Assembly (NCBI GenBank): GCA_965200925.1
Contig: OZ241738.1
Location: 585,774 to 649,773 of the forward strand
Reading direction: 5' to 3'
Length of the DNA stretch: 64,000 nucleotides
Source of the DNA: Alphaproteobacteria bacterium
GTDB lineage: Bacteria > Pseudomonadota > Alphaproteobacteria > UBA828
The notes beneath the pieces were generated by a model. The model did not search any database, was not told the DNA's origin, and saw only the letters and a program-made list of their open reading frames with translations. A program made the position numbers and the translations under genes. How positions within the stretch are numbered: the stretch's first letter is position 1; every line of letters starts with the position of its first letter. Positions 11,574 to 19,083 of this stretch are shown here, one piece after another.

Positions 11574-11590
11574 CCGGAAAACGAGGCCCG
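11574..11590. repeat. Left copy of the island-flanking 17-bp direct repeat
   Basis: ccggaaaacgaggcccg, identical to 19067-19083. Confidence 0.6.
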
Positions 11591-11595
11591 GAACA

Positions 11596-11642
11596 GCCCG
11601 TCACCCCTCGATCGCCGCGTCCGGGGCGCCGGCGGCGAGGGC
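11596..11642 (-). pseudogene. Relic 3' end (last ~14 codons plus stop) of a type IIG restriction-methylase gene
   Basis: 41/47 nt are identical to 14965-15011, the true 3' end of the upstream type IIG gene. This copy encodes ...ALAAGAPDAAIEG* against ...ALAAGKPDAKIEG* there. It lies 10 nt after the stop of the 319-aa gene. Confidence 0.7.
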
Positions 11643-11652
11643 CACTTCGACT

Positions 11653-12612
11653 TCAGCGGCGGGTGATCTTCGGCCCGACGTAGACGATGCAGACCGGCTC
11701 CCCGGGGCGGAACGACCACCAGAAATGCAGGCGCAAAGTGGGGCTTCGTACCTTGCCGTGCCACGAGCAGAACAAGGTGCCGCCGGCATCGCCGGGGTCG
11801 GGGAACGTCATTTCGTTGCGAAAATCGCGCCTCTCCGTGGGGGACGAATCGGAAAACAGCGCATTGCGACCCCTGAAGTGGTCCTGATGGATCCGGTTTC
11901 CTTCGGGCGTCCGCCTGCCGGACCGGTCGAAAGCACCCGCGAGACGGTCCAGGATGTTCAGCAGTATCAGGATGCGCTCTGACGCGCTCGCGGAGAACGG
12001 ACTCCCGTCGAGGGGTTGGAAGGCGTTGTCGGCGAAGGTCAGGCGTGTGAAGCGGCGCACCGAGGCGTTTCGCAAATCTCCCCACGACCGGACCGGTGGC
12101 GCCGCGGCGCGCAGCCCGTTTTCCAAAGCGGCGGGGGCGCGCCAGTTTTCGAGGGCTGCCTGCCGGTCTTCCAGTCCCTCGGCCTCCCGCCGCCACGCCA
12201 CCTCCACAGGCGAGAAGTCCCAGTCGGAAGGGACGACCCCGACGAGACCGCATTCGATTCCGTGAAGTTTCCGGTACGCGGCTTCGCCGACGACGGAATC
12301 GGTGACGACGTCGCCCCGGCACTCCAGCCAGTCGTCGGACCCGTGCCGGCGAAGATCGTCCCAGAACGGACCGCCTTTCGTCAGCCAGCGCATTGCGGAA
12401 CGGCGCTCGCTTTCCGACAGACACCCGATCGCCTGCTGCATCGAAACGCCCGGCAACGGTTCGACGGCCAGCAGCGCGCGGTGGCAATGAACGTCGCGCT
12501 CGTGGTGCCGGGCAACCGCGCGCATCGTCATCAGCCTGCCGAATGCGCCGCGAAACGATTGCAGGTCGTGGAATTGCCCGTGGATCGACAGGTCGTTGAC
12601 GAAAAGCTCCAC
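11653..12612 (-). CDS. Hypothetical protein, third gene of the DUF262/DUF3696 cassette (319 aa)
   Basis: GTG start with a GGAG SD, 1 nt after the ATPase stop. I recognise no family motif. The C-terminus reads FCSWHGKVRSPTLRLHFWWSFRPGEPVCIVYVGPKITRR. Confidence 0.6.
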   Translation of the reverse strand: MELFVNDLSIHGQFHDLQSFRGAFGRLMTMRAVARHHERDVHCHRALLAVEPLPGVSMQQAIGCLSESERRSAMRWLTKGGPFWDDLRRHGSDDWLECRGDVVTDSVVGEAAYRKLHGIECGLVGVVPSDWDFSPVEVAWRREAEGLEDRQAALENWRAPAALENGLRAAAPPVRSWGDLRNASVRRFTRLTFADNAFQPLDGSPFSASASERILILLNILDRLAGAFDRSGRRTPEGNRIHQDHFRGRNALFSDSSPTERRDFRNEMTFPDPGDAGGTLFCSWHGKVRSPTLRLHFWWSFRPGEPVCIVYVGPKITRR

Positions 12613-12613
12613 G

Positions 12614-17900: not shown

Positions 17901-18981
17901 CGCCGGCGTCGATGGCGCGGCAGAGGTCGTCGACGGCCGACCAGTAACGGGCGGCGCTCTCGGAGAAGACGTCGCCCTCGTCCTTGCGCCGCCCGACGTC
18001 GCCGCGCACCTTCGCGCGCAGGGCGTAATCGTCGTAGCGCGAGTCGCGGACGGGCAGCAGGTCGCGGTCCTCGGCATAGAGGATGAAGAGGAGGCGGTAG
18101 AGCAGGACAAGCCCGGCCTCGCGCACCTCCGCCAGCGGCGCGTCCGGCGCGGCGGCGGCGATGGCGCGGGCGAGCTGCGGGAAGACCCGCTCGAAGACCT
18201 TGGCGGAGAGATCGCCGGCGACGCGCTCCTCGTGGAAGCGGCCTTCGTCGACGGCGTAGCGGTGGAAACTCGCCGCCCGTTCCGCGCCGGGCAGGAAGGC
18301 CGCGCGCCGGAAGACCAGCGCGAAGACCTTGAGCCAGTGGCGGCGGGCCTCCGATGCCGGGGCGAACAGGTCGCCGCCCGCCGCCGCGGGGGTGAGGAGC
18401 GCCGCCAGGTCGATCTCGAAGAACTGCTCGGAGACGGAGCGCGCGCCCTGCCAGTAGAGCCGCCAGCAGGCGCCGTTGGTGAGGATGCCCCAGCGCAGCC
18501 CGCCTTGCGTCAGGTCCTCCACCCGGCGCAGGTAGCGGAGCATCTGGGTCGACGGCGCGGTCTCCTCGCCGTGCACGCCTGAGCGGCGGTCGAGCGGGCG
18601 CCGCCAGCGCTTGGATTCGACCAGCGCCGCGCCCAGCGCGTAGCGCCGCCACTCCTCCGGCAAGGCGTTGGCGCGGGCCTTCGCGGCTGCGTCGGCGAAG
18701 AGCAGGCCGTCCGGCACGTGGTCGCGCCCGCGGGCGCTCAGGTTCTGCTGCCGCAGGCTCTGCGTCCAGCCGAGGCGCCGGAGGACGGGCCAGATCAGGT
18801 CGTCCTCGGTCTGGCTTTCGTTGGGGGTGCCTTCGCTGGGGAAGCGGGCGAGGAGCGCGCCGAGGTCGCGTTCGAGGGCGTCGAGCGCCGCGTCGTCGAG
18901 CGCCTTCCAATCCGCCGAGCCGGCGATCGTGTCGCACAGGAAGCCGTCGGCGAACAGGCCGCCGCGGGAAAGGTTCTCCAT
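14970..18981 (-). pseudogene. Type IIG (Eco57I/MmeI-like) fused restriction endonuclease-N6-adenine methyltransferase, frameshifted near the 3' end
   Basis: ATG at 18981 with a GGAG SD (MENLSRGGLF...). N-terminal PD-ExK-like motif (VPDGLLF...LVESKRW), methyltransferase motif I VCDPAMGSGHFLV and motif IV GNPPW are present. After ...RESVLELT (about 15199) the conserved tail [44 protein letters not shown]...KIEG* continues in another frame (track ORF 14970..15365). The 4012-nt span is not a multiple of 3. Confidence 0.8.
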
Positions 18982-19020
18982 ACGCGCTCCGGCGGGAGGT
19001 CCCCGTTCCATAGCCCCGGT

Positions 19021-19063
19021 GCGCGCCGCGCGGAAGTGTTTTTCGCGCGCCCGCGCGGCGCGC
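19021..19063. other. Perfect 13-bp GC-rich inverted repeat just inside the right island boundary
   Basis: gcgcgccgcgcgg (19021-19033) and ccgcgcggcgcgc (19051-19063) are separated by aagtgtttttcgcgcgc. It lies between the coxS-like stop and the type IIG start, so it may be a terminator/insulator or an operator. Confidence 0.45.
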
Positions 19064-19066
19064 GCC

Positions 19067-19083
19067 CCGGAAAACGAGGCCCG
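19067..19083. repeat. Right copy of the island-flanking 17-bp direct repeat
   Basis: ccggaaaacgaggcccg, identical to 11574-11590, 15 nt from the coxS-like stop. Confidence 0.6.

What the first reader, a model, noticed from the sequence alone, without database searches (positions are those of the whole stretch)
11574..19083. 7.5-kb defence island bounded by a perfect 17-bp direct repeat between coxS-like and isochorismatase-family genes
Seen: ccggaaaacgaggcccg occurs at 11574-11590 and 19067-19083. The copies lie 15 nt after the coxS-like stop and 40 nt before the isochorismatase-family start, and they bracket exactly the four defence genes. Removing one repeat copy and the interior would leave a ~70-nt intergenic region. 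The interior contains visibly AT-richer stretches (for example the DUF262 gene, with caatacaaaaatctcgg and gaattttttccgg). A perfect 13-bp inverted repeat (19021-19063) sits just inside the right boundary. No integrase or transposase is present. Inference: this is a site-specific or microhomology-mediated insertion, with the 17-mer as a duplicated target or att-like core.
Basis: partly seen in the sequence, partly recalled or inferred. Interest (0 to 1): 0.7.

Follow-up and report, generated by a model that had tools for sequence, protein, structure and literature searches.

The report
Recombination scar flanking a Menshen defence islet
The 17-base repeat is real and brackets a methylase-plus-Menshen anti-phage gene cluster, but comparison with related strains indicates it is a leftover of sloppy (microhomology) recombination rather than the attachment site of a mobile element, so the finding is largely ordinary.

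Summary
CCGGAAAACGAGGCCCG occurs exactly twice, at 11574-11590 and 19067-19083. The copies bracket four minus-strand genes: an Eco57I-family (type IIG/DrmMI-like) DNA methylase and the Menshen operon nsnA-nsnB-nsnC. These lie between a coxS-like gene and an isochorismatase-family gene.

A sister-species genome (OZ251509.1) has the empty coxS-iso site with one diverged copy of the motif. Both window copies are therefore duplicated native spacer. With a 7-nt gap, the duplication spans 27 nt on the iso side.

The att/target-duplication reading fails on several counts:
- Four contigs from three samples of the same clade carry the same island and the same coxS-side junction but no iso-side copy.
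- The island's iso-side end is a 47-nt relic of a methylase 3' end, joined by 5-6-nt microhomologies (GCCCTC, CGGGC).
- The sister species carries the orthologous island about 600 kb away with no such repeat.
- There is no integrase, transposase, terminal inverted repeat or tRNA.
- The 13-bp inverted repeat decays without compensation.

The island is composite: the methylase is host-like (GC3 0.91), while nsnABC is foreign (GC3 0.77-0.82).

Best model: the repeat is a by-product of homology-facilitated illegitimate recombination. This is a known system and a known mechanism, so interest is low to moderate.

The parts
19067..19083 (.). coxS-side copy of the 17-mer. It is the end of the native coxS-iso spacer retained next to coxS. 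On the minus strand it supplies the T-tract of a weak terminator-like hairpin after coxS.
   Evidence: Terminator-like hit at 19097-19081 plus GCCTCGTTTT. Conserved in L147, L149, L150, L152 and L241; one SNP in L159.
19084..19097 (-). 14 nt of native spacer between the coxS stop and the 17-mer. It is collinear with the empty site of L002 (TGAccgcc[c/t]cccgccgg).
19019..19066 (.). 48-nt orphan segment between the 17-mer and the start of island homology. It holds the perfect 13-bp inverted repeat (arms 19021-19033 and 19051-19063). It is absent from both sister-species loci. It may be the methylase's own upstream region; its function is unknown.
   Evidence: Fold z = -3.3. 0 compensatory changes, and 5 of 13 pairs broken in at least one strain.
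14970..19011 (-). Eco57I-family N6-adenine DNA methylase fusion protein (type IIG/DrmMI-like). In this genome a private 59-nt deletion at 15198|15197 shifts the frame. The native frame would end at TAA 14972-14970; the mechanical ORF runs to 14935.
   Evidence: Pfam Eco57I 1.4e-19. PADLOC DrmMI 1e-79 and type IIG 8e-55. Deletion seen against L147, L149, L150, L152, L153 and L137. GC3 0.91 and CAI 0.763, both host-like.
14847..14969 (-). Methylase-nsnA intergenic region ('down1'). It carries the conserved motif aattgactcccgattcgccgtgtgatg (14914-14940), a candidate nsnABC promoter region.
   Evidence: A paralogous copy precedes iso in allele 2 and in L153.
13740..14846 (-). nsnA, the Menshen sensor. 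It has a ParB/DUF262 domain with the motifs FQREFLW, DGLQR and FERVN.
   Evidence: PADLOC NsnA 7.6e-115. Pfam GmrSD_N 8e-22. Motifs read in the translation. GC3 0.77 and CAI 0.47.
12614..13756 (-). nsnB, the Menshen ABC-type ATPase. It has Walker A GANASGKS, a Walker B with EN, and a C-terminal DUF3696.
   Evidence: PADLOC NsnB 1.2e-98. Pfam AAA_15, AAA_21 and DUF3696. GC3 0.82 and CAI 0.56.
11653..12612 (-). nsnC, the Menshen effector subunit.
   Evidence: PADLOC NsnC model PDLC03896, 2.4e-105 over its full length. No Pfam or NCBIfam hit. GC3 0.81 and CAI 0.52.
11596..11642 (-). 47-nt relic of a methylase 3' end (ALAAGAPDAAIEG-stop). It is joined to the nsnC downstream sequence at GCCCTC and to the native spacer at CGGGC.
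   Evidence: Repeat family D1. 47/47 identical to the L137 methylase 3' end, against 41/47 to the window's own. 7 of 47 columns vary among allele-1 strains.
11574..11600 (.). iso-side block of native spacer (cgggctgttc plus the 17-mer at 11574-11590). Native sequence continues to the iso ATG at 11534. With a 7-nt gap this 27-nt block is the full extent of the duplication.
   Evidence: The 37 nt after CGGGC (11559-11595) are invariant in 8 allele-1 sequences. The motif is partly conserved upstream of iso in L001.
10902..11534 (-). Isochorismatase-family hydrolase. Homologues are named maleamate amidohydrolase by JGI.
   Evidence: Pfam Isochorismatase 3.2e-28. Source names.
10596..10889 (+). Small convergent ORF (97 aa) that travels with iso as a ~1-kb 'iso module' (10585-11600).
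   Evidence: No family hit.
19098..19607 (-). coxS-like [2Fe-2S] subunit gene.
   Evidence: Pfam Fer2_2 6e-16. Identical to P0130.
10579..10584 (.). 6-nt filler (caggcg on the minus strand) between the end of the iso module and the block beginning with an OppB-like permease gene (window 938-10578). That block is collinear with the island's neighbour in the sister species.
   Evidence: L153 keeps about 90 more native nucleotides at this point.

Best explanation
What it is. The element is a two-module defence islet inserted in the spacer between a coxS-like gene and an isochorismatase-family gene.
- Module 1 is a host-adapted Eco57I-family (type IIG/DrmMI-like) DNA methylase gene. In this genome it is frameshifted.
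- Module 2 is a compositionally foreign Menshen operon. By analogy with the published model, NsnA is the ParB/DUF262 sensor, NsnB the ABC-ATPase transducer and NsnC the nuclease-type effector.

What the repeat is. The 17-bp direct repeat is not an attachment site. It is the overlap between two recombination breakpoints in the native spacer. The coxS-side junction keeps the spacer up to ...TTTTCCGG. The iso-side junction re-enters the same spacer 27 nt further upstream, at CGGGC. The stretch in between therefore occurs twice.

Inferred order of events:
1. A methylase-bearing insert entered the spacer without duplication. This is the junction type still seen in allele 2 and in L153. Its own 3' flank abuts iso, and about 8 nt of native spacer (taggcttc) are lost.
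2. nsnABC was joined downstream of the methylase. This left a second, relic copy of the methylase 3' end after nsnC, with GCCCTC microhomology at the joint.
3. An exchange took place between an occupied chromosome and an empty-site chromosome of the same population. It was anchored by ordinary homology on one side and closed on the other by a 5-nt CGGGC microhomology (homology-facilitated illegitimate recombination). This truncated the relic at its stop codon and fused it to an intact native spacer. The result is the allele found in the window, with its direct repeat.

Shown versus inferred. Shown: the anatomy, the alleles, the empty site, the microhomologies and the composition. Inferred: the order of events and the recombination pathway.
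For: Identity of the genes:
- assign the four proteins.
- PMC12065111 describes Menshen and its frequent link to methylases.

Empty site:
- L002 (OZ251509.1) has coxS, a 91-nt spacer and iso.
- The spacer reads ccgccgggctgttccgcgccgtgttttccggtaggcttc. It is collinear with both window junctions.

Population alleles:
- The coxS-side junction (17-mer plus the 48-nt orphan) is identical in type in every contig that spans it (L147, L149, L150, L152, L159/L160, L241/L242).
- Allele 1 of the iso-side junction carries the repeat: window, L147/L148, L149, L155, L156, L157/L158.
- Allele 2 lacks the repeat: L150/L151, L152, L241. There the 47-nt relic runs on into about 330 nt that are paralogous to the methylase-nsnA spacer and contain a 224-nt hairpin element.
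- L153/L154 has the methylase directly upstream of iso, with the allele-2-type flank and no nsnABC.

Relic and microhomologies:
- The relic is 47/47 identical to the sister-species methylase 3' end and 41/47 to the window's own.
- GCCCTC, CGGGC and GCCG sit exactly at the joints.
- Junction microhomologies of 3-10 bp are the documented range for homology-facilitated illegitimate recombination (PMC6382021).

Polarity:
- A long, contiguous gene-flank relic (allele 2) can be truncated to give allele 1.
- Allele 1 holds native bases (tgttc, taggcttc) that occur nowhere in allele-2 genomes. They must therefore have come from an uninterrupted spacer.

Composition:
- Methylase: GC3 0.91, CAI 0.763.
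- Host reference (21 genes): GC3 0.922 +/- 0.018, CAI 0.763 +/- 0.047.
- nsnC, nsnB, nsnA: GC3 0.81, 0.82, 0.77 and CAI 0.52, 0.56, 0.47.

No mobility apparatus:
- No integrase or transposase family hit.
- No tRNA.
- No terminal inverted repeats.
- No near match in plasmids or phages.
Against: - No empty-site chromosome was found inside the window's own clade. All 12 independent contigs are occupied, so the proposed empty-site partner is hypothetical. The only empty site is in the sister species (about 91% nucleotide identity).
- Polarity rests on parsimony of structure, not on phylogeny. Alleles 1 and 2 are intermixed in the 98-99.5% core group, and both types also occur in the ~96% lineages.
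- The coxS-side copy lacks 7 nt (gctgttc) that the iso-side copy and the empty site have. This needs an extra deletion or a different ancestral spacer.
- The wider history is unresolved. In the window's clade iso is followed by the permease block that flanks the island in the sister species. In the sister species and in 12 outgroup loci iso is followed by other genes. At least one further rearrangement therefore occurred.
- The origin of the 48-nt orphan with the inverted repeat is unknown.
Confidence: 0.55

Rival explanations
1. The duplication was made at the primary insertion. The island, with the methylase relic already at its distal end, entered the spacer through a microhomology-mediated or template-switch event that duplicated 27 nt of target (allele 1 first). 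Allele 2 and the methylase-only form arose later by replacement or deletion.
For: Allele 1 is the commoner allele and also occurs in the ~96% lineage L155. Both copies are native spacer. Microhomologies sit at the joints. The phylogeny does not polarise the alleles.
Against: Allele 2 would have had to gain about 330 nt that continue the relic exactly as a real methylase 3' flank does. No copy of that flank with the hairpin element exists elsewhere in the sampled loci. The coxS-side copy would also have to lose 7 nt afterwards in the ancestor of all strains.
Confidence: 0.22
2. The 17-mer (or the 27-mer) is the core of an att site, or a target-site duplication, of a discrete mobile defence island. 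The island's integrase has been lost or acts in trans, and the adjacent 13-bp inverted repeat is the recombinase-binding site.
For: Perfect direct repeats sit at both ends. A rare, stable inverted repeat lies next to one repeat. An empty site exists in the sister species. The orthologous island is at a different chromosomal position there.
Against: The iso-side repeat is absent in four contigs from three samples that have the same island and the same coxS-side junction, and in the methylase-only variant. The would-be element arm is a methylase gene relic. The island in L137 has no copy of the motif even at <=2 mismatches. There is no integrase, transposase, tRNA or terminal inverted repeat. 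The inverted-repeat arms accumulate uncompensated substitutions. A duplication of 17-27 nt is longer than the 2-15-bp target duplications typical of known transposases (own knowledge). The methylase and nsnABC differ in composition, so the island is not one unit.
Confidence: 0.08
3. The two 17-mers are independent look-alikes: chance, or convergent terminator/REP-type motifs in a GC-rich genome. On this reading nothing was duplicated.
For: Five other dispersed exact repeats of 17-21 nt exist in the window. The 17-mer occurs by chance in many unrelated genomes. It contains a T-tract after a GC hairpin on the coding strand.
Against: Both copies sit in flanks collinear with one single spacer of the empty site. 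On the iso side the collinearity extends to 27 nt and beyond. There is no third copy at <=2 mismatches in the window. In about 200 kb of related loci the motif occurs only at these two junctions.
Confidence: 0.03

Closest known systems
Menshen (NsnABC) anti-phage system with an adjacent methylase (Millman et al. 2022 as cited in, and Li et al. 2025, PMC12065111)
   Same: The gene order is nsnA-nsnB-nsnC. NsnA is a ParB/DUF262 protein with the QRxxxW, DGxQR and FxxxN motifs. NsnB is an AAA_15/21 ATPase with DUF3696 and an EN Walker B. The NsnC model matches over its full length. [quoted passage not shown]
   Different: The host is an uncultured alphaproteobacterial lineage. The linked methylase is a 1350-1395-aa Eco57I-family fusion protein, and in this genome it is frameshifted. 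No activity data exist for this variant.
Homology-facilitated illegitimate recombination (de Vries & Wackernagel 2002; Prudhomme et al. 2002; Meier & Wackernagel 2003, as summarised in PMC6382021)
   Same: Foreign DNA is joined with one side in extended homology and the other at a 3-10-bp microhomology. Here the joints show CGGGC (5 nt), GCCCTC (6 nt) and GCCG (4 nt).
   Different: Here it is inferred from natural alleles, not observed experimentally. Competence or another DNA-uptake route in this organism is unknown. The event created a short duplication of target sequence, which is not a defining outcome of this pathway.
Integrase-borne genomic islands or integrative elements with att direct repeats
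   Same: Direct repeats of native target sequence flank a block of accessory (defence) genes, and an empty site exists in a relative.
   Different: There is no integrase or recombinase and no tRNA or tmRNA target. The repeat is missing in sister alleles. The distal arm is a gene relic. The island at its other location has no repeat.
Defence-gene hot spots between conserved core genes (variable 'islets' exchanged by flanking homology)
   Same: Strain-level presence/absence and allelic variation occur at a fixed chromosomal position between core genes. A second such islet lies 5-8 kb away (window 3569-6930).
   Different: The junctions here carry explicit illegitimate-recombination scars rather than clean homologous replacement.

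Membership tests
Menshen (NsnABC) | Three co-directional genes in the order nsnA, nsnB, nsnC | tested here: met
   ORFs 13740-14846, 12614-13756 and 11653-12612, overlapping or abutting on the minus strand. PADLOC NsnA 7.6e-115, NsnB 1.2e-98, NsnC 2.4e-105.
Menshen (NsnABC) | NsnA has a ParB/DUF262 domain with the QRxxxW, DGxQR and FxxxN motifs | tested here: met
   Pfam GmrSD_N 8.1e-22. FQREFLW, DGLQR and FERVN read in the translation. Motif definitions from PMC12065111.
Menshen (NsnABC) | NsnB is an ABC-type ATPase (AAA_15) with DUF3696, Walker A GxxxxGKS and a Walker B with EN | tested here: met
   Pfam AAA_15 2.3e-19, AAA_21 1.1e-18 and DUF3696 4.1e-12. GANASGKS and LLLIENPE in the translation.
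Menshen (NsnABC) | NsnC has an inactive PIN-like N-terminal domain plus a C-terminal nuclease domain | not tested
   Only a full-length match to one PADLOC NsnC model. No Pfam or NCBIfam hit. No structure was predicted.
Menshen (NsnABC) | Protects against phage | not testable with these tools
   Needs an experiment.
Type IIG restriction-modification / Eco57I-family methylase | Eco57I-type N6-adenine methyltransferase domain | tested here: met
   Pfam Eco57I 1.4e-19. PADLOC DrmMI 1.1e-79 and REase_MTase_IIG 8.4e-55.
Type IIG restriction-modification / Eco57I-family methylase | N-terminal endonuclease domain in the same polypeptide | tested here: inconclusive
   No Pfam or NCBIfam domain in residues 1-450. 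The IIG model alignment starts at residue 248. No sequence match in the PDB.
Type IIG restriction-modification / Eco57I-family methylase | Intact reading frame | tested here: not met
   A private 59-nt deletion at 15198|15197 shifts the frame. Sister strains and L137 are intact.
Integrative genomic island with att sites | Direct repeats of target sequence at both ends | tested here: met
   17/17 identity in the window, L147 and L149.
Integrative genomic island with att sites | Integrase or recombinase gene within or beside the island | tested here: not met
   All four island ORFs are assigned to other families. No such family in the called genes within about 10 kb in sister strains.
Integrative genomic island with att sites | Both repeats present wherever the island is present, including at other loci | tested here: not met
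   The iso-side copy is absent in L150/L151, L152, L241 and L153/L154. Neither copy is in L137.
Integrative genomic island with att sites | Excision restores the empty site (circular form detectable) | not testable with these tools
   Needs read-level data or PCR. The L002 empty site is not the simple product of recombination between the two copies, because it keeps gctgttc.
Transposon with target-site duplication | Terminal inverted repeats and a transposase | tested here: not met
   No inverted repeat pairs the two island ends. No transposase.
Dispersed REP/terminator motif | Many copies across the genome | tested here: not met
   Two copies in 64 kb at <=2 mismatches. In related loci the motif occurs only at these junctions. 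The rest of the 3.55-Mb genome was not available.
Illegitimate (microhomology) recombination junction | 3-10 nt shared by both parental sequences exactly at the joint of otherwise unrelated sequences | tested here: met
   CGGGC joins the methylase flank to the native spacer. GCCCTC joins the nsnC flank to the methylase 3' end. GCCG joins the methylase flank to the iso upstream region in L153.

The most novel reading that the evidence does not exclude
The 17-27-nt spacer motif, together with the adjacent 13-bp inverted repeat, is a recognition site for a host-encoded (trans-acting) recombinase. That recombinase shuttles an integrase-less methylase-Menshen cassette between chromosomal sites (coxS|iso in this clade, upstream of the permease operon in the sister species). 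The repeat-less alleles would then be decayed derivatives.
Probability: 0.05. Interest if true: 0.6.

Novelty: new member of a known kind. Interest (0 to 1): 0.25.

Why it matters
The locus gives a clear natural record of how defence genes are shuffled without any mobile-element machinery. One chromosomal site shows four states: empty, methylase only, methylase plus Menshen without a flanking repeat, and methylase plus Menshen with one. The joints are marked by 4-6-nt microhomologies and a gene relic.

It is also a warning for island-finding heuristics. A perfect direct repeat bracketing a defence cluster, with an empty site in a relative, can be a recombination scar rather than an att site.

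Biologically it adds one more Menshen-methylase pairing, here with a methylase that has just been inactivated in one strain. It does not reveal a new system or mechanism.

Tried and rejected
- JGI metagenome scan: a search for the iso-side native spacer (TTTTCCGGTAGGCTTCRCCGRACGG) gave 0 hits, so this clade is absent from that collection.
- Exact-protein look-ups of the window's NsnC and iso: neither is on record. Near-identical homologues had to be used instead.
- Genome-wide scan for the 17-mer: it returned only single chance hits in unrelated taxa and was uninformative.
- Single-event models: I tried to explain the difference from the sister genome by one inversion, by staggered-break inversion, or by homologous recombination between two methylase copies. 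None reproduces the order cox | island | iso module | permease block, so more than one event is needed (reasoned).
- Methylase-only L153 as the ancestral intermediate: rejected as unproven. nsnABC is present in more distant lineages (L159, L137). L153 is equally well a deletion between the two copies of the methylase 3' flank.
- Neighbour of the permease operon in outgroups: it is different again, so the ancestral state is not resolved.
- Plasmid and phage searches: no phage match, and one 73%-identical methylase segment on a Pannonibacter plasmid.
- PDB sequence search with the methylase: no hit.

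
Full report
**Observation**

The 17-mer CCGGAAAACGAGGCCCG occurs at 11574-11590 and 19067-19083. It occurs nowhere else in the window, even with two mismatches.

All genes in this region are on the minus strand. Read in that direction, the order is:
- a coxM-like gene
- a coxS-like gene (19607-19098)
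- 14 nt of spacer
- the 17-mer
- a 48-nt segment holding a perfect 13-bp inverted repeat
- a 1350-aa-class methylase gene
- nsnA, nsnB and nsnC
- a 62-nt tail
- the second 17-mer
- 39 nt of spacer
- an isochorismatase-family gene (11534-10902)

As a statistic, the repeat is not remarkable. This 70.6% GC window contains five other dispersed exact repeats of 17-21 nt. The 17-mer also turns up as single chance hits in unrelated genomes across 596 Gb.

**What the genes are**

PADLOC models identify NsnA (7.6e-115), NsnB (1.2e-98) and NsnC (2.4e-105, full length). This is the Menshen anti-phage system (PMC12065111).

The published diagnostic motifs are present in the translations:
- NsnA: FQREFLW, DGLQR, FERVN
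- NsnB: GANASGKS and an EN Walker B, plus DUF3696

The large gene is an Eco57I-family N6-adenine methylase. Its best PADLOC matches are DrmMI (1e-79) and type IIG enzymes (8e-55). Whether it carries a nuclease domain is undetermined.

The Menshen paper reports that 27.9% of Menshen operons sit next to BREX, restriction-modification systems or methylases. The pairing is therefore known.

**Composition**

The island is not uniform.

| Gene(s) | GC3 | CAI |
|---|---|---|
| 21 flank genes (reference) | 0.922 +/- 0.018 | 0.763 +/- 0.047 |
| methylase | 0.91 | 0.763 |
| nsnC | 0.81 | 0.52 |
| nsnB | 0.82 | 0.56 |
| nsnA | 0.77 | 0.47 |

The methylase is indistinguishable from the host. The three nsn genes are clearly atypical. 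The island is thus two modules with different histories.

**Empty site**

A scan of species-representative genomes with the iso protein found one close relative, OZ251509.1. Its iso is 89% identical at the amino-acid level, its coxS is 86.5% identical, and the flanks are 87-93% identical at the nucleotide level.

In that genome coxS and iso are adjacent (locus L002). Its 91-nt spacer reads TGAccgcctcccgccgggctgttccgcgccgtgttttccggtaggcttcaccgaacgg....

- The window's coxS-side junction follows this spacer from the stop codon to ...ttttccgg, apart from a 7-nt gap (gctgttc). It then diverges.
- The window's iso-side junction picks the spacer up at cgggctgttc and follows it to the iso ATG.

Both 17-mers are therefore native spacer. 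The true duplicated block is 27 nt on the iso side and 20 nt on the coxS side. Part of the motif is also conserved upstream of iso in a more distant genome with a different upstream neighbour (L001).

**The same relative carries the island elsewhere**

A scan with NsnC found the orthologous methylase-nsnABC block in the same chromosome, about 600 kb away (locus L137). It is 91% identical at the nucleotide level and 85-92% at the protein level.

There it abuts the homologue of window gene 9526-10524 (98.5% identical). BLAST gives this mosaic for the window:

| Window coordinates | Matches | Content |
|---|---|---|
| 938-10578 | L137 | permease block |
| 10585-11600 | L002 | 1-kb iso module |
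| 11634-19018 | L137 | island |
| 19084-26897 | L002 | cox block |

Twelve outgroup loci keep iso next to the genes that follow it in L002. The iso | permease junction in the window's clade is therefore derived.

L137 has no copy of the 17-mer at <=2 mismatches. No single inversion or transposition converts one arrangement into the other, so several events separate the two genomes.

**Anatomy of the iso-side end**

Immediately inside the iso-side 17-mer lies a 47-nt copy of the methylase 3' end, encoding ...ALAAGAPDAAIEG-stop (11642-11596).
- It is 47/47 identical to the L137 methylase end.
- It is only 41/47 identical to the window's own methylase end at 15011-14965.
- It starts at GCCCTC, which is also the last sequence shared between the nsnC downstream regions of the window and L137.
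- It ends at TGA-CGGGC, where CGGGC is also part of the native spacer.

Both joints are thus microhomology joints between otherwise unrelated sequences.

**Population evidence**

Searching the large protein collection with iso and coxS gave near-identical proteins. Twelve look-ups returned contigs from several environmental assemblies.

Every contig that spans the coxS side has the same coxS-side junction: the 17-mer plus the 48-nt orphan (L147, L149, L150, L152, L241/L242). L159/L160 has it too, with one SNP in the 17-mer and eroded inverted-repeat arms.

The iso-side junction is polymorphic.
- Allele 1 is as in the window (window, L147/L148, L149, L155, L156, L157/L158).
- Allele 2 has the same 47-nt relic, but the relic continues after CGGGC into about 330 nt (L150/L151, L152, L241). 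This stretch is paralogous to the methylase-nsnA intergenic region (gattgactccgattcggcgtgtgatg...). It is interrupted by a 224-nt element with 15-bp terminal inverted repeats. It joins the iso upstream region 24 nt before the ATG. Allele 2 has no second 17-mer.
- L153/L154 has an intact methylase directly upstream of iso with this same type of flank and no nsnABC.

Alleles 1 and 2 are intermixed among strains that are 98-99.5% identical. Both flank types also occur in lineages at about 96% identity.

**Inference**

The coxS-side junction is shared by all alleles, so it formed once.

Allele 2 carries a long, contiguous methylase 3' flank. Allele 1 carries the same flank cut off exactly at CGGGC, followed by native bases (tgttc...taggcttc) that do not exist anywhere in allele-2 chromosomes.

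The simplest account is that allele 1 arose from an allele-2-type chromosome and an uninterrupted spacer. Ordinary homology anchored one side, and an illegitimate join at CGGGC closed the other. This is the pattern known as homology-facilitated illegitimate recombination, which uses 3-10-bp microhomologies (PMC6382021).

The join landed 27 nt upstream of where the coxS-side junction had cut the spacer, so that stretch is now present twice. The GCCCTC joint after nsnC is explained in the same way, as the event that placed nsnABC downstream of a resident methylase.

The alternative polarity (allele 1 first) cannot be excluded, and I give it about 0.2. An att-site or target-duplication origin is poorly supported (about 0.08). 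Chance is effectively excluded by the collinearity with the empty site.

**The inverted repeat**

It is rare: one of two perfect 13-bp repeats with a short spacer in the window. It folds better than 199 of 200 shuffles.

Across six strains, however, five of its 13 pairs are broken in at least one strain, and there is no compensatory change. I found nothing that ties it to recombination. It may belong to the methylase's own upstream region.

**Possible function of the duplicated block**

On the coding strand, the coxS-side copy supplies the T-tract of a weak terminator-like hairpin after coxS.

Among eight allele-1 sequences:
- the 37 native nucleotides that include the iso-side copy are invariant
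- the adjacent 47-nt relic varies at 7 columns
- the next 24 nt vary at 4 columns

This suggests constraint, for example as the iso promoter or a terminator. That reading is inference only; no sigma-70-type promoter was detected.

**Verdict**

The insertion is real relative to a sister species. The genes are a known defence system (Menshen) beside a methylase.

The repeat is best read as a scar of microhomology-mediated recombination in a recombining population, not as the boundary of a self-mobile or site-specific element. Novelty is limited to a new host and context for a known system, and a well-documented natural example of a known recombination mode.

Noticed in passing
window 15197-15198 (methylase gene, minus strand): This genome alone has a 59-nt deletion in the methylase gene relative to L147, L149, L150, L152, L153 and L137. 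The deletion shifts the frame, so the last ~86 codons of the ORF are read out of frame. The native C-terminus (...ALAAGKPDAKIEG, stop 14972-14970) is lost. The methylase next to Menshen is probably inactive in this strain.
   Followed up: yes
L150 9692-9915; also L152 9692-9915 and L241 18099-18322: A 224-nt element with perfect 15-bp terminal inverted repeats (cctgcttatccgtga / tcacggataagcagg) and an internal 26-nt inverted repeat. It sits in the relic methylase flank upstream of iso in allele 2. L153 has a degraded version. No copy was found in the window or in the other fetched loci.
   Followed up: partly
window 3569-6930: A second strain-variable islet lies between a luciferase-like gene and a DUF2497 gene. 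It holds two STAND-like NTPase genes (AAA_16; AAA_16 + wHTH + TPR), and the one tested has atypical composition (5650-6930: GC3 0.83, CAI 0.57). The islet is absent in L147 and L150. In L149 and L152 an AAA_16 gene plus a 1252-1295-aa gene occupy the same position. There is no clear match to a known defence system. 129-nt-spaced repeats occur at 3964-4245.
   Followed up: partly
window 14914-14940; L150 ~9920-9950; L153 ~3040-3070: The motif aattgactcccgattcgccgtgtgatg upstream of nsnA is conserved in the sister species. A paralogous copy lies upstream of iso in allele 2 and in L153. It may be a promoter or operator of the Menshen operon that has been co-opted for iso.
   Followed up: no
window 11559-11595: The 37 native spacer nucleotides (including the iso-side 17-mer) are invariant in eight allele-1 sequences. 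The neighbouring 47-nt relic shows 7 variable columns and the next 24 nt show 4. This suggests functional constraint on this block.
   Followed up: partly
L157 2711-4023: In one sister strain nsnB is called only as a 127-aa C-terminal fragment, with an antisense ORF over the rest. This is possibly a disrupted nsnB or an assembly error.
   Followed up: no
L137 3380-3460: Upstream of the methylase in the sister species there is a REP-like hairpin (gtcattcccgcgcaagcgggaatcc) and two tandem copies of ggtttgcaac. These occupy the position of the window's 48-nt orphan.
   Followed up: no
window 48939-49092 and 51347-51639: Exact repeats of 28 nt (126-nt spacing) and 57 nt (150-nt spacing) indicate a gene or genes with tandem repeat modules.
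   Followed up: no
window 10902-11534 and 19098-20565: JGI names iso homologues maleamate amidohydrolase. Together with the coxSM-like molybdo-flavoprotein subunit genes, this may be a nicotinate-type catabolic cluster that the island now splits.
   Followed up: no
L161 9166-9945; L162: In outgroup genomes the region upstream of the OppB-like permease gene holds yet other genes, for example a macrocin-O-methyltransferase-like ORF in lower-GC DNA. The position upstream of this operon is therefore a variable spot across species.
   Followed up: partly
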